Below, piece by piece: positions 1-64,000 of a DNA stretch of 64,000 bases (position 1 is its first letter; every line of letters starts with the position of its first letter). This DNA is from an uncultured Candidatus Saccharibacteria bacterium (GTDB lineage: Bacteria > Patescibacteriota > Minisyncoccia > Phycocordibacterales > UBA9973). The stretch is taken from positions 3,394-67,393 of the forward strand of contig CAZQAW010000002.1 in the NCBI GenBank assembly GCA_964591445.1, read 5' to 3'. Under the pieces are notes generated by a model. That model ran no database searches. It was not told the DNA's origin and was given only the letters and a program-made list of their open reading frames with translations. The position numbers and the translations under genes were made by a program.

Positions 1-691
1 GAGACCAATACATGTGCGTGCGGTCGATATCTTCTTTGAGTACATGCGCGGCGTTGGTGAGAATAGAAAGTATTTTGCCTTCTTTGTCGGTTTTCAAGCC
101 TTTGTTTTGTTTGATCGTTTCTGCATCGTGCATCGTAAGTCCATAAGTTTGCGCAAGCAGGTGCGTGAGATTTTCTCCGCCAAAGAGCGAGAACTTTGCA
201 CCCACACTTACTCCATGCGAAACGATGGAAATCTCGCTTTCTGTTTTTCCAACATGAACAAAAAGTTCTGGGGCTTGCATGCGTAACGGCGCAAGATGTT
301 TTGCTAAAGCTTCTTCTTCATATACCACACTCCTTGTACGAAAGCCTGCCGCGCGAGCAATGCGTTTGTATGTTTCTTGTTCACGGCGTATTTCACGAAG
401 TGTAAGCTCTGTCCCCTTGTGCGAAGGAATAACAAGTGCAACTTCACGAAGTTCAACAACTTTTTTCATTTCACGAAGCGCAACAAGTAAAGCTGCTTCG
501 TTTGTAATGCCGTCGTGGCCGATAGTGTGTTTGTGCAAACGAATAGACGCATGCTGTTTAAGAGCAAGTTCATCGTCTTTGCGAACGAGTGAAATATAAA
601 AAGCTTCTTCGTGGCCGATGTGGAGCGCAGCAAAAGAAGATGGCCCAAACCATTGTTGCATGCGAGAAAATCTGTACGGTTGTACTTTCAT
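1..691 (-). CDS. Actin-like ATPase of the PilM/FtsA family. Partial: the C-terminus runs off the window start. My own translation begins MKVQPYRFSRMQQWFGPSSFAALHIGHEEAFYISLVRKDDELAL...
   Basis: I translated the minus strand of 1-691 by hand and found a continuous frame with no stop, which the ORF track cannot list because the stop lies outside the window. The GxxHxG-type N-terminal ATP-binding loop and the later HVGKTESEISIVSHG motif are typical of FtsA/PilM/MreB actin-fold proteins. The plus-strand ORFs 14..286 and 279..599 look non-protein-like. Confidence 0.5.
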   Translation of the reverse strand, partial: MKVQPYRFSRMQQWFGPSSFAALHIGHEEAFYISLVRKDDELALKQHASIRLHKHTIGHDGITNEAALLVALREMKKVVELREVALVIPSHKGTELTLREIRREQETYKRIARAAGFRTRSVVYEEEALAKHLAPLRMQAPELFVHVGKTESEISIVSHGVSVGAKFSLFGGENLTHLLAQTYGLTMHDAETIKQNKGLKTDKEGKILSILTNAAHVLKEDIDRTHMYWS

Positions 692-16294: not shown

Positions 16295-16314
16295 GCGGAG
16301 ACTTTAGCATAAAG

Positions 16315-16428
16315 AAAAGAAAGAAACTAGTTGGAAAAGCCTTGCGGAGGCTGTCGAGCCGAGCAGGCTACATTTTCAGCAGAAAATGATAGCTTGCTTT
16401 TCCAGCTAGTTTCTTTCTTTTCCGACAC
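16315..16428 (+). ncRNA. Candidate structured RNA or repeat element, copy 1. The conserved ~50-nt core CCTTGCGGAGGCTGTCGAGCCGAGCAGGCTACATTTTCAGCAGAAAAT sits inside a 24-bp flanking stem.
   Basis: The core is shared with 36935-36985 and, in reverse complement, with 63229-63284. The flanking arms AAGAAAGAAACTAGTTGGAAAAGC / GCTTTTCCAGCTAGTTTCTTTCTT pair with a single U-G wobble, which holds only in the plus-strand RNA. An intrinsic terminator follows at 16434-16457. Confidence 0.45.
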
Positions 16429-16433
16429 AAAAC

Positions 16434-16457
16434 AAAAGCCCCCGGTAGGGGGCTTTT
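16434..16457. terminator. Terminator hairpin AAAAGCCCCC-GGTA-GGGGGCTTTTGT.
   Basis: GC stem with flanking A and T runs. It lies 3' of the large minus-strand gene and 3' of the plus-oriented element. Confidence 0.6.
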
Positions 16458-16484
16458 GTACATGCGACTGCGCTTCTTTCACTT

Positions 16485-24578: not shown

Positions 24579-24908
24579 GTTTGTGAGAAAAAAGCATTAA
24601 TCTTTAAACAATCCTTACAATGCTATGCACTGGAAGTAATAGATTTTTAAAGGATAGAACCAGAAACTATAAATAGTACCAAAACGTCCTTTGCAAATCT
24701 CTAGAGACCGGAGCCTGATTGCTTAAAGATTGATGCCTTCTTTTGTTGTAAATGACTGGAGACTTTATTATACCTACTCTATACAAAGTGCAAAGTCTGT
24801 GTTGTTAATATCTCTGTGGATTACGTGTGGAAAATGGTATACTACCTCTATAAGTTATTAACAGAACAAAGTTTAGCATAAAAATATTGTATTGTCAAGC
24901 ACCCTCTT

Positions 24909-32134: not shown

Positions 32135-33232
32135 CTAGCGGTTCATTGGCATTACCAAATAAGTAAATGAAGTGTCGCCGGAACCTTGAATAACGAGCGG
32201 TTTATTGCTGCCATTTGAACGGAACACCACGCTGTCTTGGTGAATGGATTGGAAACAGTCAAACACGTATTTATAATTTACATTCAAATCCACCTGTTCC
32301 CCAGAAAGTGCGCCGTCTACCGAAGTAGTATTTTCCCCGACATCATTATTCTTTGCATAGAGTTTTATTTTTTTCTCTTTCGGGTTAATGGAAAGAGTAA
32401 TTTGGTTAAATTTATCTGAAAAAATATTTGAAATTTTAAGCGCGTTCATTGCGTCTTGTTTTAAAATAATTGCTTCGGTCGTATGAGTTTTTGGAATGAT
32501 CTGTTTGTAGTCAGGGAATACGCCGTCGATAACTCGAGAAGTGAGATAAAGCCCTTGTGTTTCAAAAACGATCTGATTTTTACCAATAACCATATTCGCA
32601 TCGGTATCTATATCCTGACACACACGCACTATTTCTAAAATGTTCTTATACGGAATAATGATCGGAGAAAATTCATACGTTTCTTTAGTTTTTATTTTCT
32701 TTTCCGCTAAGCGGAATGAGTCAGTCGAGACAAATACAAGAGAACCTTGATCCGGATACATATACACACTTGAAATTTCTGGCTTTATTTCAGAGAGTGA
32801 TGCGCTGTAGTATACCGCTTTAAAGCCTTCTATAAGCTTTTTAAGAGGGATTGTGATGGATTCACCTTCTACAGTCGGAAGCGTTGGAAAATCTTCGGCT
32901 GGCTGGCCTTTAAGGATAAAAGAATTCTTTTTTGTTATCATTTCCAGGTTTCCATTCTTGAGCTCAATATTTACAACACCTTCGTCATACATAGTAGAAA
33001 AAAGACTTGAAAGAAGTGTTCCAGAAACAGCACAAACACCCTCTTGCTCGACTTTTGCCGGAACTTCAAGTTCGATACCTAAAGAAAGATTTGTTGCGCG
33101 AAGCTTCACACTTTTACCAGCGACCACAAAAAGAATAGATGAAAGCACAGGGAGGGTTAGATTTTTACCCGTTACGCGTTCAGCATTACTTATAGCCTTC
33201 TTTAGTTTTTCAATTGAACACTCGAATTTCAT
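32135..33232 (-). CDS. dnaN: DNA polymerase III beta subunit (sliding clamp).
   Basis: Three-domain beta-clamp pattern beginning MKFECSIEKLKKAISNAERV. It sits immediately downstream of dnaA. Confidence 0.9.
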   Translation of the reverse strand: MKFECSIEKLKKAISNAERVTGKNLTLPVLSSILFVVAGKSVKLRATNLSLGIELEVPAKVEQEGVCAVSGTLLSSLFSTMYDEGVVNIELKNGNLEMITKKNSFILKGQPAEDFPTLPTVEGESITIPLKKLIEGFKAVYYSASLSEIKPEISSVYMYPDQGSLVFVSTDSFRLAEKKIKTKETYEFSPIIIPYKNILEIVRVCQDIDTDANMVIGKNQIVFETQGLYLTSRVIDGVFPDYKQIIPKTHTTEAIILKQDAMNALKISNIFSDKFNQITLSINPKEKKIKLYAKNNDVGENTTSVDGALSGEQVDLNVNYKYVFDCFQSIHQDSVVFRSNGSNKPLVIQGSGDTSFTYLVMPMNR

Positions 33233-33463
33233 ATATGTGTATTTTATTCTTTATTAAATACTATTACTAATACTAGCATGGTGGATATGTGGATTAGTGG
33301 TATAAAACCCTTATTTTGTATAGCTTAATTGATAATTTCATACTGTTTATTTCTTGTTGATAATGTTGACTGTATGTTTATAAATACACATTTTTCATTA
33401 AAGGATATATTCTTTCCACAGATGAGGTATCGGTTGTATACACACTTCACACTCTTTTCCACA
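33233..33463. promoter_or_regulatory. dnaA-dnaN intergenic region: candidate oriC segment with degenerate DnaA boxes and an AT-rich stretch that could be a DNA-unwinding element.
   Basis: GGTGGATAT, TGTGGATTA (33281-33297), TTTTCCACA (about 33456). Long AT-rich run at 33300-33410. Confidence 0.5.
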
Positions 33464-34813
33464 TTATTTAAACAGAGTTCTCAACTGTTCAAGCTCTTGG
33501 ATAAGTCCCGGGTCGGTTTTTAAATCTTTCTTGATCTTTAAACACGAGTGAATGACGGTCGTATGGTCTTTACCACCCAATTTTTGCCCAATAAGAGGGT
33601 ATGAGACATTGAAATCCTCTCGAAGGATATACATAACAAGCTGGCGTGCCTTTACTATCTCCTTTCGGCGTGTCTTGTCATAAATAGCTTCTTCTTCAAG
33701 GTTAAAGAATTCAGCAATAGACTTCACCACATCTTTAATTGCGACATTTTTCTTTGGGCGAATGTTATTTTTGATAAGATTTTTAACTTCAGCCAATGTA
33801 ATTTCGCGATTTTTGAGTTGAGATTGTACTAAAATAGAATTTAAGCTCCCTTCAAGCTCGCGAATACTGCCTTGGATCGATGCCGCCAGGTGTTCAAGTA
33901 CTTCGTCTGTTATTGAAACAGCTGATTCCTTGAGTTTCTCTTTGAGAATTGCCAAACGAGATTCGTATTCCGGCTGGTTGATATCAACGATCATACCCGC
34001 AGAGAAGCGAGACTTGAGACGGTCTTCAAGGCCTGGAATGTAGTTTGGGTGTTTATCTGAAGAAAAGATAATTTGCTTGTTGTTTTCGTATAAAGTATTG
34101 AATAAATGGAATAATTCTTCTTGTGTTTTCTCTTTTGTGGAGATGAATTGGATATCGTCCATAATAAGCACATCGTATTTACGGTACTTTTCTTTAAAAC
34201 TATTTGGTTTGTTGTTTTGGACGGAGTTGATGTAATCGATAGCGAACTTTTCAAGAGTAATATAATGCACTTTTTTCTCTGGATAGCGAGCTTTAATAGC
34301 ATTTCCTATTCCTTGAATAAGGTGTGTTTTTCCGAGTCCTGTATCTCCATAGATAAAAAACGGGTTATACGAGGTTCCAGGGCGGTTTATGATGGCTTGT
34401 GAAGCAGCATGAGCGAGTTCATTGAATGGTCCGACGACAAATGAATTTAAATCATAGCGTGGGTTTAAGTTGTCTTCTTTGTTGATATATAAATCTTGAA
34501 GTGGAAGTTCTCTGTGACTAAAAACACTTTTATCTTCAAAGTGTTCTTGCGCTTTTTGGCGAGCATCGTGTTTGCTAATGATGTACTCTACCCCGCGAGT
34601 ATCCTCCGCAAATGTCATGAGTGTTTTTAAAATAGACTTGTGAAATTTTTTATAGAGCCAGTCTTTAACGAATTCATTCGGAACGCCGATGTAGATGGTA
34701 CCAGCTTCCTGTTTTGCAATAGAGGTGTTCTTGAACCATGTACTAAAGTTGGCTTTAGACATGTCTTTTTCAAGTTCAAGTAAACAATTGTCCCACAGTT
34801 CTTTGGTATCCAT
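33464..34813 (-). CDS. dnaA: Chromosomal replication initiator DnaA. The start was refined to the internal ATG (MDTKELWDNCLLELEKDMSKANFSTWFKNTS).
   Basis: Walker A GDTGLGKTHL, sensor and box motifs, and a C-terminal DNA-binding helix. The ORF-track start is a GTG that lies inside a perfect DnaA box. Confidence 0.9.
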   Translation of the reverse strand: MDTKELWDNCLLELEKDMSKANFSTWFKNTSIAKQEAGTIYIGVPNEFVKDWLYKKFHKSILKTLMTFAEDTRGVEYIISKHDARQKAQEHFEDKSVFSHRELPLQDLYINKEDNLNPRYDLNSFVVGPFNELAHAASQAIINRPGTSYNPFFIYGDTGLGKTHLIQGIGNAIKARYPEKKVHYITLEKFAIDYINSVQNNKPNSFKEKYRKYDVLIMDDIQFISTKEKTQEELFHLFNTLYENNKQIIFSSDKHPNYIPGLEDRLKSRFSAGMIVDINQPEYESRLAILKEKLKESAVSITDEVLEHLAASIQGSIRELEGSLNSILVQSQLKNREITLAEVKNLIKNNIRPKKNVAIKDVVKSIAEFFNLEEEAIYDKTRRKEIVKARQLVMYILREDFNVSYPLIGQKLGGKDHTTVIHSCLKIKKDLKTDPGLIQELEQLRTLFK

Positions 34814-34982
34814 ATGAAGTACACCTATTATAGACTTTAAAAGTATATTTGCAAAATTATCCACAGCTTAATTAACATGTGGATAAGGTGTGGAAAGATA
34901 TGAATAACTTTTCTCACCCCTCGCTTCGCAAGGGAGGAAAATTGAGCTTGTAAAATAAAATATTTTATTGTATACTCCCCTC
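34814..34982. promoter_or_regulatory. Region upstream of dnaA with perfect DnaA boxes TTATCCACA (34857-34865) and TGTGGATAA (34878-34886), plus TGTGGAAAG (34889-34897). It also contains the rpmH promoter.
   Basis: Exact matches to the TTATNCACA consensus in both orientations, 10 nt apart. Classic rpmH/dnaA divergent arrangement. Confidence 0.55.
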
Positions 34983-35117
34983 ATGTCATTCACATATAAC
35001 CCGAAAAAGCGAAAACGAGCCACAACTCACGGCTTTCTTGTTCGAAGCAAAACCAAGAACGGCAAGAACGTCTTGAAGCGCCGCCGAGCTCAGGGCCGAA
35101 AGCGAATAGCTCTCTAA
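34983..35117 (+). CDS. rpmH: 50S ribosomal protein L34 (44 aa). Not in the ORF track because it is shorter than 60 aa.
   Basis: My own translation: [44 protein letters not shown]. The stop lies 3 nt before rnpA. Confidence 0.85.
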
Positions 35118-35120
35118 ACT

Positions 35121-35453
35121 ATGCTCCCAAAGTCCAAGCGCGCCACATCTTCTCATATAGATGAACTCGCAAAAGGTAAAAAGACCCTTTCGGGGGCTTT
35201 TTTTACTATGTCGGTGAGATTTGTAAAAAACCCTTTAGAAATAAGCCGATTTGCGGTTATTGTCTCTAAAAAAGTGGCTAAAACAGCTGTTTCTCGCAAT
35301 AAGCTCCGCCGACAAGCCTATTCCGCCTTGGAAAATAAGGATATTTTTCTTCCCGCTGGGATGATCTGCGCTTTCTATGCTAAAAAAGAGGCTGAAAAAG
35401 CACAATACGCTGATTTATCAAGGGATATTTCAGAACTTATATCAAAAATATGA
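35121..35453 (+). CDS. rnpA: RNase P protein component.
   Basis: Basic protein with an RNR-like motif (SRNKLRRQAY). Positioned between rpmH and yidD. Confidence 0.85.
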   Translation: MLPKSKRATSSHIDELAKGKKTLSGAFFTMSVRFVKNPLEISRFAVIVSKKVAKTAVSRNKLRRQAYSALENKDIFLPAGMICAFYAKKEAEKAQYADLSRDISELISKI

Positions 35454-35665
35454 ACAAAATAGCTATATTTTTTATCAAATTCTATAAAATAATCCTTCGG
35501 CCATTCTTAGGTAATCAAAAAATCTGTGGATTCTACCCTACTTGTTCCGAATACGGTCTCCAAGCCTTTCAAAAATACAACTTTTTCAAAGCAAGCTATC
35601 TCACTATCCGAAGAATCCTTCGTTGCCATCCTTGGCAGAAAAATCATTTTGATCCACTGCCATAA
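35450..35665 (+). CDS. yidD: Membrane protein insertion efficiency factor YidD.
   Basis: FIKFYKIILRPFLG..CGFYPTCSEYGLQA is the conserved YidD motif. Overlaps rnpA by 4 nt (ATGA). Confidence 0.85.
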   Translation: MNKIAIFFIKFYKIILRPFLGNQKICGFYPTCSEYGLQAFQKYNFFKASYLTIRRILRCHPWQKNHFDPLP

Positions 35666-35704
35666 ATATTTTGAATAGTTCTCTTTTTAGAGTACAATAG
35701 GGAA

Positions 35705-36439
35705 ATGTTAACCTCACTTTGGACAGCTGTGCTCTATAAGCCACTTTATAACGCTCTCATTGCCATTATCGAGTTTATCCCGGGCCACAATGTTGCGGTC
35801 GCGGTGATTTTACTTACTATTATCGTCAAACTCATCCTCTTCCCTCTCACTCGCAAATCAATCATCAGCCAGGCAAAATTGAAAGAACTTGAACCGGAAA
35901 TCGCGCGATTGAAAGAACAATTCCCTGACAAACAAGAACAAGCAAAAAAGACGATGGAATTGTACAAGCAATACAACGTCAATCCATTCTCTGGTTGTTT
36001 ACTCATCTTGATCCAAATCCCGATTATCTTTGCGCTCTACTACGTGTTTTACAAAGGACTCAATTTTAATCCCGACATGCTCTACTCGTTCGTTGAATTT
36101 CCAAAAATCATGAGTATGGAATTTTTGGGAATTATGATGCAGGGCAAAAGTATTGTGCTCGCCGTGCTCGCTGGTGTTACACAATTTGTCCAAGCATATC
36201 TTTCTACTACAATGCCGACAAAGAATCCGAATCAGACTGGCTTTGCCGCTTCATTTGCACAAAGCATGAATATCCAAGTTCGTTACGTACTCCCAGTGAT
36301 CGTGGCAATCATCGCTTATCAGATTTCTGCTGCAGTTGCACTTTACTGGGTCACAAGCAACCTCTTTACTATTGGGCAAGAATTCCTCATCCGCCGCAAA
36401 CTAGGGTCCAAGAAAGTATCTGCTGTAACTCTCAACTAA
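35705..36439 (+). CDS. yidC: YidC/Oxa1-family membrane protein insertase (short form).
   Basis: Five-TM core carrying the conserved YidC helices. Confidence 0.85.
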   Translation: MLTSLWTAVLYKPLYNALIAIIEFIPGHNVAVAVILLTIIVKLILFPLTRKSIISQAKLKELEPEIARLKEQFPDKQEQAKKTMELYKQYNVNPFSGCLLILIQIPIIFALYYVFYKGLNFNPDMLYSFVEFPKIMSMEFLGIMMQGKSIVLAVLAGVTQFVQAYLSTTMPTKNPNQTGFAASFAQSMNIQVRYVLPVIVAIIAYQISAAVALYWVTSNLFTIGQEFLIRRKLGSKKVSAVTLN

Positions 36440-36440
36440 C

Positions 36441-36905
36441 ATGAACAGAAGCGATATAGAAAAAAGCATACACGACCTTTTCCGGGCAACGAATCTCACT
36501 ATCGACGAAGTGGTGGTGAAAGATGATGAAGACACAGGCATGGTATGGTTTTCTATTCGTACGAGCGAGCCGGAACTTTTTATCGGCCGAAATGGTGAAA
36601 CACTTCAAGCTTGGAACCATATCGTTCGCAAAATGATCGAGAAACAACTTACCAGAGCGGAAACCTTTACTGAAATCTTGATCGATGTAAACGACTATCA
36701 AAAGAAAAAAGTAGACAGTTTGAAAACAATAGCTCATATGATGGCTGAACGCGCACGATTCTTCAAATCAAGCGTCGATGTCGAGCCGATGTCCCCTTAT
36801 GAAAGAAAGATTATTCACTCATATCTTGCAAATAAAAACGATGTGACAACAGAGTCTGCGGGCGAAGGACGAGACAGGCATGTGGTGATCAAATACGTTG
36901 GTTAG
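36441..36905 (+). CDS. jag: Jag/KhpB-like RNA-binding protein (KH plus R3H domains).
   Basis: The C-terminal ERKIIHSYLANKNDVTTESAGEGRDRHVVIK is an R3H motif. Typical gene order after yidC. Confidence 0.8.
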   Translation: MNRSDIEKSIHDLFRATNLTIDEVVVKDDEDTGMVWFSIRTSEPELFIGRNGETLQAWNHIVRKMIEKQLTRAETFTEILIDVNDYQKKKVDSLKTIAHMMAERARFFKSSVDVEPMSPYERKIIHSYLANKNDVTTESAGEGRDRHVVIKYVG

Positions 36906-37019
36906 CCGCACAAAAGAAAAAGCATTCCGGAGACCTTGCGCAGGCTGTCGAGCCGAGCAGAGCAAATTTTCAGCAGAAAATTATGTCGTGTCTCCGGAAT
37001 GCTTTTTCTTTTGTGCGGC
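36905..37019 (+). ncRNA. Candidate structured RNA or repeat element, copy 2. The conserved core sits inside a perfect 30-bp stem that exactly fills the spacer between convergent jag and the gene at 37023.
   Basis: Core ACCTTGCGCAGGCTGTCGAGCCGAGCAGAGCAAATTTTCAGCAGAAAAT. Arms GCCGCACAAAAGAAAAAGCATTCCGGAGAC / GTCTCCGGAATGCTTTTTCTTTTGTGCGGC. Confidence 0.45.
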
Positions 37020-37022
37020 TTG

Positions 37023-38624
37023 TTAATTTAACTTCAAACTCCACAAGCTCGAATCTTTTTTATTGATGAAGAAAAGTTTGGTGCCGGTAGAGTCGATGGC
37101 GAGTGATACTGCATCGATATCTTGCCCGACGCTTTCAGTCGGAGTTTCGATGAGCGTATTTGTTCCAGTTTCAAAATCTATTTTCCAGATCACGTCAGAA
37201 AAACTCACAAGACCTTGGTACCACACGTCCGGATATTCCCCATTTGCCATTGCTGTTGGTACGCCGCAATAGGCAATGGTGTTTGTTGCAAAGACGCACT
37301 TTGCCGGCAAGGTTGTAAATGGAAATGTCGTTCGTGTCTGTTTTGCTCGGTTGTAGTCGTTGAACGTCACTATTCCTCCGACAGTTGCGCTATACAATAC
37401 ATGGTTTTTGTCTGGGCTCATAAGCGTAGTAAGGCCGTTGATCGGGCCAAGGATTTTTGAAGTTGTTTTTTTGTCTGTATCGAGCATATACGCATATCCG
37501 GGCACGGCGCTCGAAGCTTTTGTTGTAAGCAAGACTGTGTTTGTATTTACAAACTGCGGTTTCCATTCACTAAAAGGTGATTTGAATACAGAAGTTGTCT
37601 TGTTTTGCGTTGGCATGAACACATCGCCGTTTACTCCCCCGTCAAAACGTGTAAGATAAAATGTTCGTCCCACATCTCCTTTCACGAAAGACAAAATATT
37701 TTCCGGCAAAAACACCCCCTTGAGTTCTGTGTTTGTATTCTCTACGCCGATCGTATGTGTTGGTACTGTGCCGGCAAAAGTTTGAATTGCTTTTGTGTCT
37801 TGGTTGAGATATCTCATGACCACAGTTTCGCTTCCTGGTATAAATATCGCTTCGTGTACGCGTGGAATGGTTGTCGTTGTAACTTTCTCTACGCTCGGAC
37901 TATCGAGCAATGTCTCATATATACGCCCGGTCGCTTTTTCGGCGTAACGCACCACTTCTTTTTTAGTGATCTGAGGTGGAGGCACAGGCTTGGTGCACTG
38001 GAATGGAGTATTTAATTTTTCTCGTGTTGCTGCATCAACTTTGCCTGTTGGTTCTTGTGTTGCTTCGTCAAAAATAAAGAAGATTCGTTGGAAAATTTTC
38101 ACCGCGTTTTCTGTTGCCAGATCAAAAGTTGTGCTTTCCTTCCCCGGAGAACCGACGCCACTTGGCGCGATCTGTAGTTCACCGCACTGGTTGAAAAGTT
38201 TTTGCAGTTCTTTGACGTCAGTGTTCTTGGTTTTAATTCCCAGATCTTTTTTAAATACAAAAGTTGTTTGGGCTGTAACAACCTCTTTGTCTTCTTGTAC
38301 TTGGCCTGGCATGACGTCGACTTGCGCAAAGCCAAAACCTGCAACTGGATTTCCAGAAATCTGAATGAGCTTCTGTTCTTTGCTTGGAGTTGTATTTGTA
38401 TCAGTTTCTGCTGGTGTTGTGTCCGGAGTAAGCGGAGTTTCATTTTCGTCTACTTTTGTATTTGATCCAAAAGGAAAGAAGTCGCGAAGCGTGATCCCGC
38501 TTCCGTCTTGTAAAGGCTCGCCTGTGGCGGTCGTCGCAGATCTGCCTTTTAAATAAAGCAAACCGCCAAAGACCGCAGCCCCGACAACAATGAGTATGAC
38601 AATGATAATAAGTGCTTTTTTCAT
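37023..38624 (-). CDS. Membrane-anchored secreted protein with a putative peptidoglycan-binding-like segment. Function unknown.
   Basis: N-terminal TM, Thr/Pro-rich linker, an L..LF...G...G.PG.....FD..T..AVK.FQ pattern, and beta-rich C-terminal repeats. Confidence 0.4.
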   Translation of the reverse strand: MKKALIIIVILIVVGAAVFGGLLYLKGRSATTATGEPLQDGSGITLRDFFPFGSNTKVDENETPLTPDTTPAETDTNTTPSKEQKLIQISGNPVAGFGFAQVDVMPGQVQEDKEVVTAQTTFVFKKDLGIKTKNTDVKELQKLFNQCGELQIAPSGVGSPGKESTTFDLATENAVKIFQRIFFIFDEATQEPTGKVDAATREKLNTPFQCTKPVPPPQITKKEVVRYAEKATGRIYETLLDSPSVEKVTTTTIPRVHEAIFIPGSETVVMRYLNQDTKAIQTFAGTVPTHTIGVENTNTELKGVFLPENILSFVKGDVGRTFYLTRFDGGVNGDVFMPTQNKTTSVFKSPFSEWKPQFVNTNTVLLTTKASSAVPGYAYMLDTDKKTTSKILGPINGLTTLMSPDKNHVLYSATVGGIVTFNDYNRAKQTRTTFPFTTLPAKCVFATNTIAYCGVPTAMANGEYPDVWYQGLVSFSDVIWKIDFETGTNTLIETPTESVGQDIDAVSLAIDSTGTKLFFINKKDSSLWSLKLN

Positions 38625-38625
38625 A

Positions 38626-40191
38626 TTATTTACAATTACCTCCGTAGACCGAAAAGTGTGCGGCCGATATATCTCTCCAAACTAATATCTTAGATGGGTT
38701 GACTCCTCCGTTTACTAAAGTGGTTTTTTCTGCCGCCGTTTTTACTTCATATATTGCACACAAGCCGGCATTTTGCGCACTCGTTATAAATAGTTTAACA
38801 TTTTCTGCTGTTGGTGAAGCTCCGTCAAAGTTCGCGTCAATACATGTGCCAGCTGGGTGACAAGCAGCTTTATGTGTACGTGACGGCTGCCATGCTTCGG
38901 TCACTCCCCATTTTTCACCAATGGCGCTGCTTGCAAGTGCGGTCGTCATCGTTTGCAAATGCTGCTTCAGTATTTTTTCTACTTTTGTTCCCCTGCTGTT
39001 TTTGATAGGAACATCTACACCACCAGCTCCACGCAGTTCTATGCAATCTGTCGGACATCTTCCTGTGCCTTGTGGGTATTCGATGTTCAAGACAGTGCCG
39101 TCTTCTGCTACTTCTTCTACTGTGATAGTTTGCTTGTTTAGATCCAAATTGATCTCAAGCAGTTTTGGATTGAGCGTATTTAATATCGCGTACGCGCCAA
39201 GTACCAAGATAAGACCCAAGATCGCGTTTGTCATTCTCCCCTTCGCGCTTTCTTTGCTTGTGATGACATCGCTTGACATGTATTCAATACCCCCAATGAC
39301 AAGCATAAGCACAGCGAGCACTCCGGCAAGCGCAATACCGATACGGAATATGATTTTCAAATAATCTGCTACTTTTGTATCAGTGGTGTCGATTGTTGAA
39401 AGTCCGGGAAGTGGCGCAAGCAAGCAGTATTGGTTTGGAATACAACCAGGTTCTGTTGCGGCACTTACGCCATTGCCAGAGTTCAAAACTTGTCCGGGTT
39501 TTGCAGATGTGCGGAAGAATCCGTCGAAATAATTTGTATTGGTTGCGGTATTGTAGACCTGATAATAATAGTCTGTGTTGCCATTCAAATTTTTGAGTTC
39601 TATTTTTGCGTTAAATGTCCCTGGCTGTGTACTTTTGAAGAACTCACCAAGTTTTTGATCGTATGTCCCCGGTCCAGCCGAACTATACCGTGCTCCAAGA
39701 GTAAACGATCCTGTGCCTGCAATTATTATCTTTAAATTGATAGTTGCTTCTTGAAATCCAGCATTCTGGGTATCGAGCAATACTGATACTTCTTTGTCTG
39801 TTACGTCTTTTTCTTTTTCTGTTTTGAAACAAATATCTGATCCATATATCGGCGTCTGAGTACTACTGCTTGCATCAGTTACAAAGATGCAATAGTCTGT
39901 ATCTATTTTTAGGCCCGTAAGGCGTTTTGAGAGCATATTGTTTGGGCCAAGTGCAAATGGGGGCGTGAAAACAAATTGAGTTCCATCGACTCCGTTTTCT
40001 CTATACCCAATTTTTATGCTTGATCCAGTTGGTTCGAGAATCTTTCCTGTAATAAGGGCAGAGTTTATTGTCTTCTCTTCAACTTTCATGTTAATTGCCT
40101 GCACAGCATCTGCTGTAAAAGGCACAATGAACACTACTGCAAGTAGTGCGATGACTGCATATTCTTTTATATAGCCCAAAAGCTTTTGCAT
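38626..40191 (-). CDS. Hypothetical membrane protein (N-terminal signal, two central TM helices, Cys-containing C-terminal domain). Possible secretion-apparatus component.
   Basis: Central IIFRIGIALAGVLAVLMLVIGGIEYM and AILGLILVLGAYAILNTLNP helices. The assignment rests on context with VirB4 and VirB6-like genes only. Confidence 0.35.
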   Translation of the reverse strand: MQKLLGYIKEYAVIALLAVVFIVPFTADAVQAINMKVEEKTINSALITGKILEPTGSSIKIGYRENGVDGTQFVFTPPFALGPNNMLSKRLTGLKIDTDYCIFVTDASSSTQTPIYGSDICFKTEKEKDVTDKEVSVLLDTQNAGFQEATINLKIIIAGTGSFTLGARYSSAGPGTYDQKLGEFFKSTQPGTFNAKIELKNLNGNTDYYYQVYNTATNTNYFDGFFRTSAKPGQVLNSGNGVSAATEPGCIPNQYCLLAPLPGLSTIDTTDTKVADYLKIIFRIGIALAGVLAVLMLVIGGIEYMSSDVITSKESAKGRMTNAILGLILVLGAYAILNTLNPKLLEINLDLNKQTITVEEVAEDGTVLNIEYPQGTGRCPTDCIELRGAGGVDVPIKNSRGTKVEKILKQHLQTMTTALASSAIGEKWGVTEAWQPSRTHKAACHPAGTCIDANFDGASPTAENVKLFITSAQNAGLCAIYEVKTAAEKTTLVNGGVNPSKILVWRDISAAHFSVYGGNCK

Positions 40192-40192
40192 G

Positions 40193-41188
40193 TTATTTGA
40201 TGATATCTATATAAAACGATTGTGTCGTAAGCTGGAAAAGTTTCGTTACGCTTTCAAGTTCAAGCCCTACTTTTGCTCGCCCATTCTCCCCTCCGCGAAC
40301 TACGAGCAAGTTTCTTGGAAGCGGAGTTTCTATTTTATTGTTATTGATACTCCATTTGTAAGCGATTTCGTTTGTGTTCGGATCTTTCACCGAGAAGAAG
40401 TATGGTTCTGCCACGATGCTTGCTTCTTTAGAAGTCAGCCGGTATCCGTTGTTGAGCGCTTGAGCAAAGAGTGTTCCCTGAAGCGGCGATTCTTCGTAAA
40501 ACACAACTTTCGGTTTACCTGGAACGATAGTTATGCTTGCCTCGCCTCCAGTCGTCTGACTTGTTGCGTTTACTGAAATAGTCTCTTCCTTGTTCAGATA
40601 GCTTGCTTTGAAAGTAAAAGTATTCTTGCCGTAGCCAGATGCACGTTGGTCGATAGTATAATTCTTTTTCCAGTTGTAAGAATACGCACCTGCTCCGCCG
40701 TTTGTAGATTTTGCATTTGGAAGCGCCACCACTTTGATGGTCGCTTCTGAGCTTGGCAATGCTTTTCCTTCATAAAACGGCGGCACGTATGAATCAAGCG
40801 CTTCCCACAGCATGTCGAATTCCGAAGGAGTGATAACGACCTGTTTTTCAAAAGTAGCGCTGTTTGACTTGATGACGGCGCGGATGGTTGTAGATACGCC
40901 AACGTCTGGCGCACGTACTGAAAATGTTTTAATGCCATTTGCATTACTTTTGAGTTTTCCATCTTGGTACCAAGTGATTTGAGAAAGATTGAGGTCAACA
41001 CTGTAGCTCGTCAAAGTAATGGTTACGTCTTGGTTCGGCTGTGGATTTTCCGGCGCCACAGTCATGCTGATATCGCTTGCGGTTAAGGCACTTTGAGCAT
41101 AAACATTTCCAGCTCCAAAAACCGAAGCCAAAAAGACAAGTGCGAGTGTGTGCACGAGGAAAACTTTGTAATGAAAACGAGAGTTCAT
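40193..41188 (-). CDS. Hypothetical secreted beta-rich protein.
   Basis: Signal peptide MNSRFHYKVFLVHTLALVFLASVFGAGNVYA. Translationally coupled (1-nt gap) to the upstream gene. Confidence 0.4.
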   Translation of the reverse strand: MNSRFHYKVFLVHTLALVFLASVFGAGNVYAQSALTASDISMTVAPENPQPNQDVTITLTSYSVDLNLSQITWYQDGKLKSNANGIKTFSVRAPDVGVSTTIRAVIKSNSATFEKQVVITPSEFDMLWEALDSYVPPFYEGKALPSSEATIKVVALPNAKSTNGGAGAYSYNWKKNYTIDQRASGYGKNTFTFKASYLNKEETISVNATSQTTGGEASITIVPGKPKVVFYEESPLQGTLFAQALNNGYRLTSKEASIVAEPYFFSVKDPNTNEIAYKWSINNNKIETPLPRNLLVVRGGENGRAKVGLELESVTKLFQLTTQSFYIDIIK

Positions 41189-41234
41189 TAGCTTAAGTAT
41201 AAAATACTTTGTATGAAAATACGAGGGAAAAGTC

Positions 41235-43067
41235 TTACTTTACACCCTTCTCTGCCATTTCGAGTTCGTCTTTAGATTTCTTGATTGCAAGCACTTGCGA
41301 CGGGTCAGACGTGATGATCTGGTCTTCGGTATAAGACGAGATGATTTTGATAGCGACGTGTTTGAGTCCGGCAAAGAAAATACCTTCTCCGACGTTTGAT
41401 TCAAGAAGCAAATATTTCTCTTCGTCTGTGAGGTTAAAGGTTTTTTGGAGTAAGTCGATCGATGACGGAGACTGTTTAAGTAGAAGTTGGAGCGAAGAGT
41501 TAGTAACAATCGGCACGCCGTACGGGCTTTTCATAAAGTCCCCTACGTCTTGAGTGATCGTACAAAGTCCAAGGTAGTATTTTCGGCCACGCTTTGCGAT
41601 CGAGTACAAGAACGACGCTGTATCGTCGGATTTCATCATCCACCACGCTTCGTCGACAACGAGCAAGCGCTTTTTCAAATTCTTGCGCACTGCGTTCCAA
41701 ATATAGTGCGTGACGATGTACATGGCAACCGGTTTCAATTCGTCTTCCATGTCGCGCACGGAAAAAACGACGAACTTTTTGTTGATGTCGACGTTTGAAG
41801 GCTGGTTTAAAAATGTAGACCATGAACCGCGAGTGAACTTTGCCAAGCGCTGAATGAGAGACTCACTTCCCTCCATGCCAGCTAAGACCATTTCAAAGTC
41901 AGTCAAAAGCGGCGGCTCGATATTTGAGAAATCTGAATCAGCGGTGATGTCTTTGATCGCGTATGTTTCGGTAATCGCGCGGTCGACGATGGAATCTTCT
42001 TCCGGAGTAAGGCCGCCAAGCATGATACGGAAAAGCCCGACCAAGTTGATCACGTTTGAACGAAGCACGTCCGCCGGAGTTTCATCTTCGCGAGGAATTG
42101 GAAGATCAAACGGGTTGATGTGGTGTTCTGAAGAAAGTGCAATGTTGAAGTATCGCCCGCCGACGGCTTCGGCCAAATATTCGTATTCTTTTTCCGGGTC
42201 GATCACGATAACTTCTGTATCGAACATGAGCGTACGAAGGATTTCGAGTTTTGTCGCGTATGATTTACCGGAACCAGATTTGGCAAAGATGATCGAGTTG
42301 TAGTTTTCCAAAGAAAATCGATCGAAAATGACGAGCGAAGAGTTGTGGCGATTTACGCCATAGAGTATTCCCTTGTCAGACGTAAGGTCAAACGAAACGA
42401 ATGGAAAAAGCGAAGAAAGCGGCTCAGAATTGAGCTTTTGGTGGACGTTCAAGAGGTCACTTCCGAGAGGAATGACTGAATCAAACCCTTCTTCTTGCTG
42501 GAAAAGTGCCGGTTTCAAATAGACAAGCTTTGATTCGAGGATAGACTTGATTTCGTTCTCAATTTTAAAAAGCTCATTTTCGTTGTTGCCGTATACTGTT
42601 ATATAAAGCCCGACGTCAAAAATCTTTTCTTGCGCTTGTTGCAAATTGTCTCGCAATCCTTCCAAGTCTTGATACGCGGTGTCGAGCATCGGGTCGCGAA
42701 CAAGGCCTTTGCTTTCGCGGATGTTGATCTGGCTTTGTACTTCGGCAACTTTCTTTTGGAACTCGCGGAGGATTTTTGCAGTTTCGATCGGATGGATGAA
42801 AATGGAAACGTCAAAGATCTTGTCGAGGTTGATGATCGGAGAGAACCAGTTGTCGGAAAGATAGCGTGGATACGAAATGACGAAGAATGTGCGAGCCATT
42901 TTGTCTCCCAAGTTAAGTGCCTTTGGTTCTATTTTGAGCGCAGACGGCGCAATGATATCGCGGAATTCAAGCGTTGCCGCTTCATAAATTTCCGTCGGCA
43001 AAACCGGAAGCACCTGCTTCTTCCCCGCTCCGTCATCTTTCTTTTTTAGAAAATCAAAAAGTGCCAT
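41235..43067 (-). CDS. virB4: VirB4/TrbE/TraC-family type IV secretion ATPase, C-terminal ATPase portion of 610 aa.
   Basis: Walker A IIFAKSGSGKSYATK, Walker B LLVVDEAWWMM, and family-typical blocks (GLCTITQDVGDF). Confidence 0.8.
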   Translation of the reverse strand: MALFDFLKKKDDGAGKKQVLPVLPTEIYEAATLEFRDIIAPSALKIEPKALNLGDKMARTFFVISYPRYLSDNWFSPIINLDKIFDVSIFIHPIETAKILREFQKKVAEVQSQINIRESKGLVRDPMLDTAYQDLEGLRDNLQQAQEKIFDVGLYITVYGNNENELFKIENEIKSILESKLVYLKPALFQQEEGFDSVIPLGSDLLNVHQKLNSEPLSSLFPFVSFDLTSDKGILYGVNRHNSSLVIFDRFSLENYNSIIFAKSGSGKSYATKLEILRTLMFDTEVIVIDPEKEYEYLAEAVGGRYFNIALSSEHHINPFDLPIPREDETPADVLRSNVINLVGLFRIMLGGLTPEEDSIVDRAITETYAIKDITADSDFSNIEPPLLTDFEMVLAGMEGSESLIQRLAKFTRGSWSTFLNQPSNVDINKKFVVFSVRDMEDELKPVAMYIVTHYIWNAVRKNLKKRLLVVDEAWWMMKSDDTASFLYSIAKRGRKYYLGLCTITQDVGDFMKSPYGVPIVTNSSLQLLLKQSPSSIDLLQKTFNLTDEEKYLLLESNVGEGIFFAGLKHVAIKIISSYTEDQIITSDPSQVLAIKKSKDELEMAEKGVK

Positions 43068-63194: not shown

Positions 63195-63198
63195 AATA

Positions 63199-63313
63199 CC
63201 AAAACAATAAAACAAACATTCTGAAAGCAAGCTATAATTTTCTGCTGAAAATTTAGCCTGCTCGGCTCGACAGCCTCCGCAAGGCTTTCATAATATTTGT
63301 TTTATTGTTTTGG
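63199..63313 (-). ncRNA. Candidate structured RNA or repeat element, copy 3, in minus orientation. The core sits inside a ~30-bp stem whose outer arm overlaps the last four codons of the comM-like gene.
   Basis: Reverse complement of 63229-63284: AAGCCTTGCGGAGGCTGTCGAGCCGAGCAGGCTAAATTTTCAGCAGAAAATTATAGC. Arms CCAAAACAATAAAACAAACATTCTGAAAGC / GCTTTCATAATATTTGTTTTATTGTTTTGG have two mismatches, one of which is a G-U wobble only on the minus-strand RNA. Confidence 0.45.
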
Positions 63314-64000
63314 TCGATATTGCAACGCTTCCAAAACATGCTGTGTGGTTACATTTTCGCTTTCTGCCAAGTCTGCAATGGTGCGCGCGAGTTTGATGAC
63401 TCGGTGGTATGCTCGCGCAGACAGCCCGAGTTTTTCGGCTGTCGTATTTAAAAGTTTTTTCGTTTCTTCGGAGAGCGGAACATAACTTGCGAGGTCTCGT
63501 GTATTCATCTCTGTATTTGTGGTGATGCTACGCGGATGATTTTTAAATCTTTTTCTCTGTATTGCTCTTGCGCGTTCGACGCGTTTTTTTATTTCAGCAC
63601 TTCCTTCGCCTTCTCGTGTCGTAGTGCTCAACTTTTCATAATCCACTTCGCCGACGTGCGTCCAAATATCGACGCGGTCCATGATCGGCCCGGAAATTTT
63701 TCTTTGGTATCGCGCAATATCATTTTGTCGACAGACGCATTCTTTGTGAAGCGCGCCGCGGTTGCCGCATGGACACGGGTTCATCGCTGCGACCAAAATA
63801 AATCTTGATGGAAAAACGACCGAACCTTTGGCGCGAGAAACAGTGACCACTTTGTCTTCCAAAGGTTGTCGCAAACTTTCAATCACACGTTTTTCAAATT
63901 CTGGAAATTCATCGAGAAACAAAACTCCATGATGTGCGAGCGTGACTTCGCCAGGTTTTGGAAAGGTGCCACCGCCAATCATCGAAACGTACGATGCGGT
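63302..64000 (-). CDS. YifB/ComM-family Mg-chelatase-like AAA+ ATPase. Partial: the N-terminus lies beyond the window end.
   Basis: HHGVLFLDEFPEF (Walker B/sensor), RFILVAAMNPCPCG, and a C-terminal Mg_chelatase_C-like region (ARAYHRVIKLARTIADLAE). Confidence 0.8.
   Translation of the reverse strand, partial: TASYVSMIGGGTFPKPGEVTLAHHGVLFLDEFPEFEKRVIESLRQPLEDKVVTVSRAKGSVVFPSRFILVAAMNPCPCGNRGALHKECVCRQNDIARYQRKISGPIMDRVDIWTHVGEVDYEKLSTTTREGEGSAEIKKRVERARAIQRKRFKNHPRSITTNTEMNTRDLASYVPLSEETKKLLNTTAEKLGLSARAYHRVIKLARTIADLAESENVTTQHVLEALQYRPKQ

What the first reader, a model, noticed from the sequence alone, without database searches (positions are those of the whole stretch)
36905..37019. Three-copy conserved ~50-nt core embedded in different long stems that covary: a candidate structured RNA or site family
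The same core (CCTTGCGGAGGCTGTCGAGCCGAGCAGGCT-A-AATTTTCAGCAGAAAAT-tAT-gC) occurs at 16345-16395 (plus), 36935-36985 (plus) and 63229-63284 (minus). The core contains internal palindromes, ATTTTC-AGCA-GAAAAT and GCCTTGCGGAGGC. In every copy it sits in the loop of a 24-30-bp inverted repeat whose sequence is completely different between copies: AAGAAAGAAACTAGTTGGAAAAGC, GCCGCACAAAAGAAAAAGCATTCCGGAGAC and CCAAAACAATAAAACAAACATTCTGAAAGC. A conserved loop with stems that differ in sequence but stay complementary is covariation, which is the signature of selection on structure. It is the opposite of a MITE, where the terminal inverted repeats are conserved. In two copies the only stem imperfection is a G-U wobble, and it holds only on the strand that reads the core in the CCTTGCGG...GAAAAT direction. 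This fits a functional RNA transcribed in that orientation. All three copies sit in 3' intergenic spacers next to, but distinct from, canonical GC-hairpin/T-tract terminators. I do not recognise the core as any known riboswitch, RNase P RNA, tmRNA, SRP RNA, Xer dif site or attC motif.
Basis: seen in the sequence. Interest (0 to 1): 0.85.

Follow-up and report, generated by a model that had tools for sequence, protein, structure and literature searches.

The report
Mobile hairpin repeat of CPR bacteria
The three sites are copies of an apparently undescribed family of roughly 120-base hairpin-shaped repeats scattered through the small genomes of Patescibacteria (CPR bacteria); the folded tip is conserved and the stem differs at every site, and the repeats behave like a small mobile element, even sitting in-frame inside an essential gene, rather than like a gene-linked regulatory RNA.

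Summary
Three copies (16314-16422 +, 36904-37020 +, 63198-63314 -) share a 55-nt core, each flanked by unrelated 27-31-nt inverted repeats. The window is a Patescibacteria chromosome (dnaA region).

A pattern scan and a covariance model found 55 copies in 21 Patescibacteria genome assemblies, two metagenome contigs and the window, and none elsewhere. Rfam and the literature gave nothing.

On one strand the core folds into a three-way junction. Both small hairpins show compensatory changes (99% paired). Stem wobbles are G·U 24 against A·C 6.

The context does not fit a 3'-UTR RNA:
- orientation relative to neighbouring genes is random;
- copies are present or absent at orthologous sites;
- some copies are inverted, truncated, nested, or have an exchanged core;
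- one insertion sits in-frame inside tsaD, and at least 34 of 120 CPR TsaD homologues translate the core.

In a filled/empty tsaD pair the indel is the 5' arm plus the apex. The 3' arm is already present in the empty allele.

Best reading: a non-autonomous mobile hairpin element. Its apex is the recognised part. At least the outer stem is an inverted copy of neighbouring target DNA. I file it as a new variant of MITE/RPE-like repeats; the mechanism is inferred, not shown.

The parts
16314..16422 (+). Copy 1, whole hairpin (109 nt). It lies between the terminator of the 935-aa gene (16432-16459) and the tsaE start codon (16294). The element is antisense to both genes.
16314..16340 (+). Copy 1, P1 5' arm (27 nt)
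   Evidence: (I4)
16341..16395 (+). Copy 1, conserved 55-nt apex. P2 hairpin GGCTGTCGAGCC is at 16349-16360 and P3 hairpin ATTTTCAGCAGAAAAT at 16372-16387.
16396..16422 (+). Copy 1, P1 3' arm (27 nt, one U·G)
36904..37020 (+). Copy 2, whole hairpin (117 nt). It starts at the second base of the khpB/jag stop codon (36903-36905) and ends 2 nt before the stop codon of the convergent 533-aa gene (37023-37025). It is the entire intergenic spacer.
36904..36934 (+). Copy 2, P1 5' arm (31 nt, perfect)
   Evidence: I1
36935..36989 (+). Copy 2, conserved apex (P2 hairpin 36943-36954; P3 hairpin 36966-36981). The core subtype differs from that of copies 1 and 3.
36990..37020 (+). Copy 2, P1 3' arm (31 nt)
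63198..63314 (-). Copy 3, whole hairpin (117 nt), between the M23 peptidase gene (ends 63170, + strand) and comM (stop codon 63302-63304, - strand). The 5' arm (63284-63314) covers the last four codons and the stop codon of comM.
63229..63283 (-). Copy 3, conserved apex (P2 hairpin 63264-63275; P3 hairpin 63237-63252). It differs from the copy 1 apex only by one compensatory pair (A-U instead of C-G).

Best explanation
The three loci are members of a family of non-autonomous, hairpin-shaped mobile repeats specific to Patescibacteria (median about 120 nt).

Anatomy (shown). A 55-nt apex folds, on one strand only, into a three-way junction:
- P2 = (U)UGC / GNA·GA internal loop / GGCU-GUCG-AGCC.
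- P3 = a 3-bp base, a bulged A, then AUUUUC-AGCA-GAAAAU.
- A long stem P1 (20-45 bp) closes the junction.

Behaviour (shown).
- Copies sit in any kind of intergenic spacer, in either orientation.
- They are gained and lost between related genomes.
- Copies are found truncated and nested, and at one orthologous site the core subtype differs between genomes while the arms are the same.
- One lineage of copies persists in-frame inside tsaD, where the element is translated.

Mechanism (inferred).
- An unidentified trans-acting machinery recognises the conserved apex on the folded single strand (DNA or RNA). That would explain why the apex is conserved and only one strand tolerates wobbles.
- The ends are set by the base of the hairpin, not by terminal sequences. 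This explains the lack of conserved termini and of direct target duplications.
- At or after insertion the stem is lengthened by an inverted copy of 0 to about 30 nt of the adjoining target DNA, most simply by fold-back (snap-back) synthesis. Inner stem layers travel with the element and define subfamilies.
- Perfect stems mark young copies. Older copies accumulate mismatches or compensating changes.

Wherever a copy is transcribed, its long stem will also act as an RNA hairpin. Copy 2 is the only structure between two convergent genes, so secondary host use as a terminator or stabiliser is possible but not required.
For: Family and taxon range:
- 35 exact matches in 32 loci of 21 species-representative genomes, all Patescibacteria.
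- 2 metagenome contigs.
- 55 covariance-model hits in 296 kb, about one per 5 kb of these loci (which were chosen because they carry a copy); the 15 copies beyond the seeding matches are about one per 18-20 kb, as are the 3 copies in the 64-kb window.

Structure:
- P2 upper stem is 99.1% paired, and 4 of 4 pairs show changes on both sides.
- P3 is 99.1% paired, and 10 of 10 pairs show changes on both sides.
- No shuffle (0/500) reached the observed values.

Strand: G·U 24 against A·C 6 in P1. The sense strand is 2.4-8 kcal/mol more stable.

Mobility:
- Filled L045 against empty L014, with 85% identical flanks and a 139-nt indel.
- L017 and L024 are each filled where the other is empty.
- Same spacer, opposite orientation and different subtype: L021/L031 and L034/L039.
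- Same arms but three different core subtypes at one orthologous site: L039/L029/L034.
- A truncated copy in L016.
- Random orientation relative to flanking genes.
- The neighbours are housekeeping genes; no transposase, integrase or reverse transcriptase appears among the 25 families that most of the 145 flanking ORFs match.

In-frame insertion in tsaD:
- Found in L036, L019 and L032.
- 43 residues have no counterpart in the solved TsaD structure 8iey.
- At least 34 of 120 CPR TsaD homologues carry the core-encoded peptide, and all indels between them are multiples of three.
- Loop states are interspersed on a tree of these proteins.

A stem built from target DNA:
- Filled L064 and empty L061 are 83.6% identical over the gene. 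The indel is the 5' arm plus the apex (99 nt). The 3' arm AAT AAC ATT... is present codon for codon in the empty allele. The 5' arm is its inverted complement with one G·U.
- The same holds for L032 against L061, where the 3' arm is AAT AAT ATA and the 5' arm has changed to match.
- An unrelated hairpin insert in the same loop shows the same pattern at protein level.
- In 3 of 7 members of the 'TTGTTGCAGG' subfamily (copies whose shared unit begins with that sequence), pairing continues 16-19 bp beyond the sharply bounded unit.
- Window copies 1 and 3 have near-identical cores but unrelated arms.
Against: - No protein partner, intermediate or transcript has been seen.
- The direction of the tsaD indel is ambiguous. 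The empty alleles (P0293, P0299, P0305) nest among filled ones on the NJ tree. They could therefore be partial deletions that left one arm behind, rather than virgin sites.
- In L045/L014 the empty site contains neither arm. There the whole stem travelled with the element, or the empty site is a deletion.
- Orthologous copies keep pairing while their arms diverge (L030/L037, and L036/L019). P3 also changed by compensatory steps between orthologues, even inside the CDS (L030/L037 and L032/L036). This suggests in-situ selection or conversion, which would fit a host function.
- Conversely, a 99%-identical strain (L050) carries three uncompensated arm mismatches.
- The exact-match seeding of the search biases the sample towards conserved cores.
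Confidence: 0.55

Rival explanations
1. A host-functional structured RNA module. The conserved three-way junction would be a protein- or RNA-binding domain displayed on a long helix, acting as a stand-alone small RNA or as a cis element (terminator, RNase III processing site or stabiliser). Pairing would be maintained by selection at each locus.
For: - The apex is nearly invariant across distant Patescibacteria lineages, with compensatory changes in P2 and P3.
- The G·U excess is on one strand only.
- Orthologous copies retain pairing although their arms differ.
- P3 changed by compensatory steps between orthologues.
- Copy 2 in the window, and an unrelated hairpin at the same spacer in a relative (L055), are the only structures between two convergent genes.
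Against: - Orientation relative to flanking transcription is random, and no promoter consensus was found.
- There is no conserved neighbouring gene.
- Copies are present or absent at orthologous sites, and inverted within the same spacer.
- Truncated copies exist.
- The in-frame copy in tsaD is translated, and its indels are multiples of three.
- A near-identical strain has three uncompensated mismatches.
Confidence: 0.2
2. A single-stranded-DNA site, folded like a plasmid single-strand origin (ssoA type), an integron attC site or a relaxase/HUH nicking hairpin. It would be used for priming, recombination or transfer of chromosomal DNA (the window carries T4SS-like genes).
For: - The fold is strand-specific and tolerates wobbles.
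- A conserved loop on a variable stem is the pattern of ssoA-type origins and of the nick sites of rolling-circle elements (my own knowledge).
- T4SS-like genes lie next to copy 2.
Against: - The three window copies show no consistent orientation relative to the dnaA/origin region (16.3 kb +, 36.9 kb +, 63.2 kb -).
- There are no arrays, and no integrase or relaxase next to the copies.
- This reading does not explain the in-CDS copy, or the inverted copy of target DNA.
Confidence: 0.1
3. An ordinary MITE-like element whose whole stem is element-borne. The arms would differ only because they evolve fast under pairing constraint or arm-to-arm conversion. The tsaD 'empty' alleles would be partial deletions.
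For: - In L045/L014 the whole hairpin is the indel.
- The empty tsaD alleles nest among filled ones.
- Subfamilies share stem modules such as ATAGTCT.../...AGAGCTAT.
Against: - There are no conserved termini and no direct target duplications above a control.
- Cores differing by one base pair carry totally unrelated arms within one genome.
- L027 and L028, from one genome, share a near-identical 108-nt unit but have different complementary flanks of 17-19 bp.
- The deletion reading needs two independent deletions that each leave exactly one arm, in frame.
Confidence: 0.12

Closest known systems
Rickettsia palindromic elements (RPE)
   Same: Palindromic repeats of about 100-150 bp in a reduced genome. 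They are dispersed in many copies, come in several families, and insert in-frame into unrelated or essential protein genes, where they are translated (PMC10969869; tsaD case).
   Different: The taxon is different. RPE families are conserved along their whole length, whereas here only the apex (plus subfamily stem modules) is conserved and the arms are site-specific. Sequence relatedness to RPEs was not tested.
MITEs (for example Correia, ERIC, RUP)
   Same: Small, non-coding, non-autonomous and multi-copy. They fold into hairpins when transcribed, and show presence/absence polymorphism.
   Different: MITEs are defined by conserved terminal inverted repeats and direct target-site duplications. 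Here the termini are not conserved and no duplications were found. The conserved part is the centre.
REP / REPIN elements mobilised by RAYT transposases
   Same: Intergenic palindromic repeats whose single-stranded hairpin form is the presumed substrate.
   Different: REP stems are the conserved part and the loops or spacers vary. No RAYT (Y1 transposase) gene appears among the 25 families that most neighbouring ORFs match.
ssoA-type single-strand origins and integron attC sites
   Same: Function depends on a folded single strand in one orientation. In ssoA, sequence conservation is confined to short motifs, including the terminal loop, while the stems vary (my own knowledge).
   Different: Those are single sites on plasmids, or arrays next to an integrase. 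In attC the base of the stem is conserved, not the apex. Here the copies are dispersed along a chromosome and one lies inside a CDS.
Fold-back (snap-back) inverted duplications and quasipalindrome correction by template switching
   Same: These produce a perfect inverted copy of adjoining DNA around a short hairpin-forming centre, as inferred here for the outer stem.
   Different: They are known as sporadic mutational events, not as a regular step in the spread of a repeat family.

Membership tests
MITE | Small (<300 bp), non-coding, multi-copy | tested here: met
   55 copies, median outer hairpin about 120 nt
MITE | Terminal inverted repeats whose sequence is conserved among copies | tested here: not met
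   The arms of the three window copies, and of most others, are unrelated
MITE | Direct target-site duplications | tested here: not met
   The distribution of flanking direct repeats is no different from a displaced control
MITE | A parent IS/transposase with matching ends | tested here: inconclusive
   No transposase family appears among the 25 Pfam families that most of the 145 flanking ORFs match (154 families hit in all). Whole genomes were not available.
Rickettsia palindromic elements | Palindromic repeat of about 100-150 bp inserted in-frame in protein genes and translated | tested here: met
   tsaD of L036, L019, L032 and L064; at least 34 of 120 homologues
Rickettsia palindromic elements | Sequence homology to RPE-1..10; Rickettsia host | not tested
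   No RPE sequences were compared. The hosts here are Patescibacteria.
REP/REPIN | Conserved stem sequence, variable loop, RAYT gene in the genome | tested here: not met
   The conservation pattern is the reverse. No Y1 transposase appears among the 25 families that most neighbouring ORFs match.
Integron attC | Conserved R''/R' core sites (..AAC / GTT..) at the base of the stem, arrays of cassettes next to intI | tested here: not met
   The outer ends are not conserved. Copies are dispersed among housekeeping genes.
Intrinsic terminator | Short G+C-rich stem followed by a U tract, downstream of and co-oriented with a gene | tested here: not met
   The scan does not call the elements. Orientation is random. 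Copies 1 and 3 lie beside separate canonical terminators.
Any Rfam 15 family | Score at or above the family's gathering threshold | tested here: not met
   Only three tRNAs in the window. The E-value scan gave only long-hairpin microRNA noise.
TIGR arrays (Tas-associated guide RNAs of CPR and phages) | Tandem arrays with box C/D motifs and 8-12-nt spacers next to a Nop-domain gene | tested here: not met
   Copies are solitary and lack box C/D motifs. The description was read in PMC12045711.

The most novel reading that the evidence does not exclude
A new mode of transposition. A hairpin element is recognised only by its folded apical three-way junction on a single strand. Its ends are defined by structure, not sequence. 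It builds a site-specific stem by copying the adjoining target DNA in inverted orientation (an inverted target duplication in place of the classical direct one). Several unrelated apex families in CPR genomes (L055, L059, L063) would share this mechanism.
Probability: 0.3. Interest if true: 0.9.

Novelty: new variant of a known kind. Interest (0 to 1): 0.75.

Why it matters
CPR/Patescibacteria genomes are about 1 Mb and are usually thought to be poor in repeats. Here there is a structured repeat about every 20 kb.

- The repeat breaks short-read assemblies. Logan contigs from the window's own organism end inside the arms.
- It remodels intergenic spacers.
- It has added 30-50 residues to a loop of the essential tRNA-modification enzyme TsaD in many lineages.
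- Its anatomy (conserved centre, site-specific arms, no terminal repeats, no direct duplications) is the reverse of MITEs and REPINs. That points to a mobilisation mechanism acting on folded single strands and to inverted duplication of target DNA. If confirmed, this would be a new way for DNA to move and a new source of long hairpins in bacterial transcripts.
- The covariance model also gives a simple marker for annotating these genomes.

Tried and rejected
- My first genome-collection pattern had the wrong spacing (7 N instead of 6 N). Its zero result says nothing about window-type copies. The same error limited the only metagenome scan to the 5-T variant.
- The twelve 17-mer hits in viral contigs are chance matches without the hairpin.
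- CRISPR-like idea, that the arms are spacers against phages: one arm gave no viral match. The other gave a single 20-nt match inside a phage gene that does not extend further. I take this as chance.
- The arms have no other source within the window.
- No tRNA association.
- No sigma-70 promoter consensus common to the copies, and the elements are not called as terminators.
- Insertion into pre-existing palindromes: the empty sites L014, L024 and L017 show no hairpin at the insertion point. Only one core-less ATAG...CTAT hairpin was found (L029 907-970).
- A kink-turn reading of the P2 internal loop was rejected by inspection (the loop is 3x2 with no 3-nt bulge plus GA).
- Intron or spliced-hairpin reading of the tsaD copy: rejected, because the open reading frame is kept and all indels are multiples of three across many lineages.
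- TIGR arrays were read about and excluded.
- Literature searches by sequence, taxon and keywords found no description.
- Look-ups for strains lacking window copies 1-3 found only filled alleles, or contigs that break at the element.

Full report
**1.
The 17-mer GCTGTCGAGCCGAGCAG and the 16-mer ATTTTCAGCAGAAAAT each occur exactly at the three stated places, against 0.06 and 0.26 matches expected by chance. The repeat finder lists the three loci as the best inverted repeats of the window: arms of 27, 31 and 31 nt that are 96, 100 and 94% complementary. In all three the arms are separated by exactly 55 nt, and the arm sequences are unrelated between loci. The whole hairpins fold at -60.7, -71.5 and -54.2 kcal/mol (z about -10). 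In each case the core-sense strand is 2.4-8 kcal/mol more stable than its complement.

**2. Where the window comes from.**
The neighbouring genes are housekeeping genes:
- polA, tsaE, dnaN, dnaA
- rnpA-yidC-khpB
- comM, an M23 peptidase, T4SS-like genes

Stretches of the window are 65-70% identical at the DNA level to MAGs labelled Paceibacteria or Nomurabacteria. The closest homologues of its KhpB and TsaE proteins are named Paceibacterota or Parcubacteria. The window is therefore a Patescibacteria (CPR) chromosome that includes the dnaA region.

Placement of the three copies:
- Copy 1 lies between a canonical terminator and the tsaE start codon, antisense to both neighbouring genes.
- Copy 2 occupies the entire spacer between the stop codons of khpB and a convergent gene.
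- The 5' arm of copy 3 covers the last four codons of comM.

**3. It is a family restricted to Patescibacteria.**
- Rfam finds only three tRNAs in the window. A permissive scan of copy 2 gives only microRNA-precursor noise, as any long hairpin would.
- A two-block exact pattern found 35 matches in 32 loci from 21 species-representative genomes. Every one is a Patescibacteria MAG. Two metagenome contigs also matched.
- A covariance model built from 38 copies found 55 copies in 296 kb of window plus loci, all with E below 1e-6. Fifteen of these lack the exact pattern. The model found no further copy in the window.
- These loci were chosen because they carry a copy. The 15 copies beyond the seeding matches work out at about one per 18-20 kb, close to the window's three copies in 64 kb.

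**4. Structure.**
Every copy folds the same way:
- P1 is a long basal stem.
- P2 is (U)UGC, then a GNA/GA internal loop, then GGCU-GUCG-AGCC.
- P3 is three base pairs, an invariant bulged A, then AUUUUC-AGCA-GAAAAU.

On the model-based alignment of 55 copies, the P2 upper stem is 99.1% paired and all four pairs show changes on both sides (GGCU/AGCC, GGGC/GCCC, AGCU/AGCU, ACCU/AGGU, GGCC/GGCC). P3 is 99.1% paired and all ten pairs show changes on both sides. No shuffle (0/500) reaches the observed covariation, and sliding the 3' partners by one to three columns cuts pairing to 33-57% and the covariation score to 0.05-0.14 (from 0.48) (independent MAFFT alignment). The alignment was fitted to the model, which favours the structure somewhat. 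However, the same pairs appear in the unfitted alignment.

In P1 the non-Watson-Crick positions are G·U 24 times and A·C 6 times in the core-sense orientation. That is about 19 against 3 independent events.

**5. The context contradicts a gene-linked RNA.**
- Relative to the nearest ORFs, the 55 copies are opp/opp 16, opp/same 12, same/opp 11 and same/same 8. All spacer types and both orientations occur.
- The 145 neighbouring ORFs are housekeeping genes. No mobile-element enzyme appears among the 25 families that most of them match.
- No shared promoter consensus was found.

Orthologous comparisons show turnover:
- L045 has the element where L014, with 85% identical flanks, has nothing; the indel is 139 nt.
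- L017 and L024 are each filled where the other is empty.
- L021/L031 and L034/L039 carry copies of different subtype and opposite orientation in the same spacer.
- L039, L029 and L034 share the same 5' arm but have three different core subtypes. In L029, synteny breaks at the core.
- L016 has a copy truncated at its 5' end.
- In relatives at about 80% protein identity, the sites of window copies 1 and 2 hold unrelated long hairpins: L059, and L055 with a perfect 27-bp stem.
- A strain with 99% identical KhpB has copy 2 with three uncompensated arm mismatches.

**6. An in-frame insertion in tsaD.**
In L036, L019 and L032 the element lies inside tsaD, in the sense orientation, with the reading frame kept open (Pfam confirms TsaD). 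Compared with the solved TsaD structure 8iey, residues 246-288 of the L036 protein have no counterpart.

Among 120 CPR TsaD homologues, the loop between GGPxISxLA and LPRP ranges from 6 to 71 residues:
- At least 34 homologues carry the core-encoded peptide (...VVPGS[IL][AT][EQ]A[VD][EG]PS...ADGNNISSEI...).
- A few read the same core in another frame (...ARARGIFQQKNIR...).
- About 31 carry two other hairpin-type inserts.
- One has a nested insert.
- 31 have short loops.

Length differences between the in-frame alleles are whole numbers of codons, so the insert is translated, not spliced out. On a tree built without the loop, the loop states are interspersed, with filled and empty alleles as close sisters. 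This is the behaviour described for Rickettsia palindromic elements (PMC10969869).

**7. Why the stems differ.**
Window copies 1 and 3 have cores that differ by a single compensatory pair, yet their arms share nothing. Slow compensatory drift cannot explain this.

Codon-level comparison of filled L064 with empty L061 (83.6% identical over the gene) shows which part is the indel. It is the 5' arm plus the apex (99 nt). The 3' arm, AAT AAC ATT... (N-N-I-S/T-S), is present codon for codon in the empty allele. The 5' arm, AATGTTGTTCC, is its inverted complement with one G·U, and weaker complementarity continues for about 25 nt.

In the L032 lineage the retained sequence is AAT AAT ATA, and the 5' arm is correspondingly TATATTGTTCC. 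An unrelated hairpin insert in the same loop shows the same pattern at the protein level: P0282 (filled) against P0297 (empty), with the hairpin itself seen in L063.

In the subfamily whose shared unit begins TTGTTGCAGG, a sharply bounded 108-nt unit is common to seven copies from four genomes. In three of the seven, pairing continues 16-19 bp into otherwise unrelated flanks. No direct target duplications are detectable.

The simplest account is that at least the outer stem is an inverted copy of DNA adjoining the insertion, made by fold-back synthesis. Inner layers, such as the ATAGTCT.../...AGAGCTAT module with its bulged G, travel with the element.

Caveats:
- The empty tsaD alleles nest among filled ones, so they may be precise or partial deletions.
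- In L045/L014 neither arm is present at the empty site.

**8. Verdict.**
The finding is a real, structured, strand-specific, multi-copy family, and it appears to be undescribed: no Rfam family matches, and sequence and keyword literature searches found nothing. TIGR arrays of CPR were read about and excluded.

It works like a MITE or RPE-type selfish repeat but fails the defining MITE tests of conserved termini and direct duplications. I file it as a new variant of that kind, with a conserved apical three-way junction as the presumed recognition element and a partly target-derived stem. A host function for the RNA form is not excluded (probability about 0.2) and may coexist with mobility.

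Noticed in passing
window 24586-24742: A conserved non-coding stretch, 75-81% identical to L015 2636-2793 and L042 4687-4839. It is closed by a 26-nt imperfect inverted repeat and lies between a terminator and the next gene. No Rfam match. It may be an unannotated CPR ncRNA.
   Followed up: partly
window 32135-36905: The neighbourhood of the chromosomal replication origin: dnaN, dnaA (- strand), and rnpA-yidC-khpB (+ strand). The dnaA-rnpA spacer (about 34865-35120) is the likely oriC. GC skew shows no clear switch.
   Followed up: partly
window 37023-43067: A T4SS-like gene cluster (T4SS pilin domain 38626-40191, TraG-type P-loop ATPase 41235-43067) directly beside copy 2.
   Followed up: no
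L055 2974-3060; L059 about 1870-1990: In relatives at about 80% protein identity, the sites orthologous to window copies 2 and 1 hold unrelated long hairpins. One has a perfect 27-bp stem with a 33-nt apex. The other has a 15-bp stem with three apical hairpins. This suggests further hairpin-element families and recurrent use of the same spacers.
   Followed up: partly
TsaD homologues P0241-P0360; L063 (tsaD loop): The TsaD loop between GGPxISxLA and LPRP is an insertion hot spot in CPR. It holds three hairpin-insert types, one nested insert (P0272), and the same core read in two frames. The L063 insert folds into a 21-bp hairpin with a different apex.
   Followed up: partly
L029 3626-3894 and 896-994: Synteny with L034 and L039 ends exactly at the 3' side of the core, which suggests a rearrangement or an assembly join at the repeat. 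At another orthologous site L029 has an ATAG...CTAT outer stem around a plain terminator-like hairpin instead of the core.
   Followed up: partly
all copies (arms), e.g. window 16314-16340, 36904-36934, 63284-63314: On both strands the 5' arm of the palindrome is A/purine-rich and the 3' arm is T-rich (5' arms: A 354, T 266, G 154, C 81). This polarity towards the centre is unexplained.
   Followed up: no
L047, L048, L051-L054, L058: Logan short-read contigs of the window's own organism and its close strains end inside the arms or core of the element, so the repeat fragments assemblies.
   Followed up: yes
L049 1038-1057: A 20-nt exact match between the 5' arm of copy 1 and a coding region of a viral contig. 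It does not extend beyond 20-21 nt, and I judge it to be chance.
   Followed up: yes
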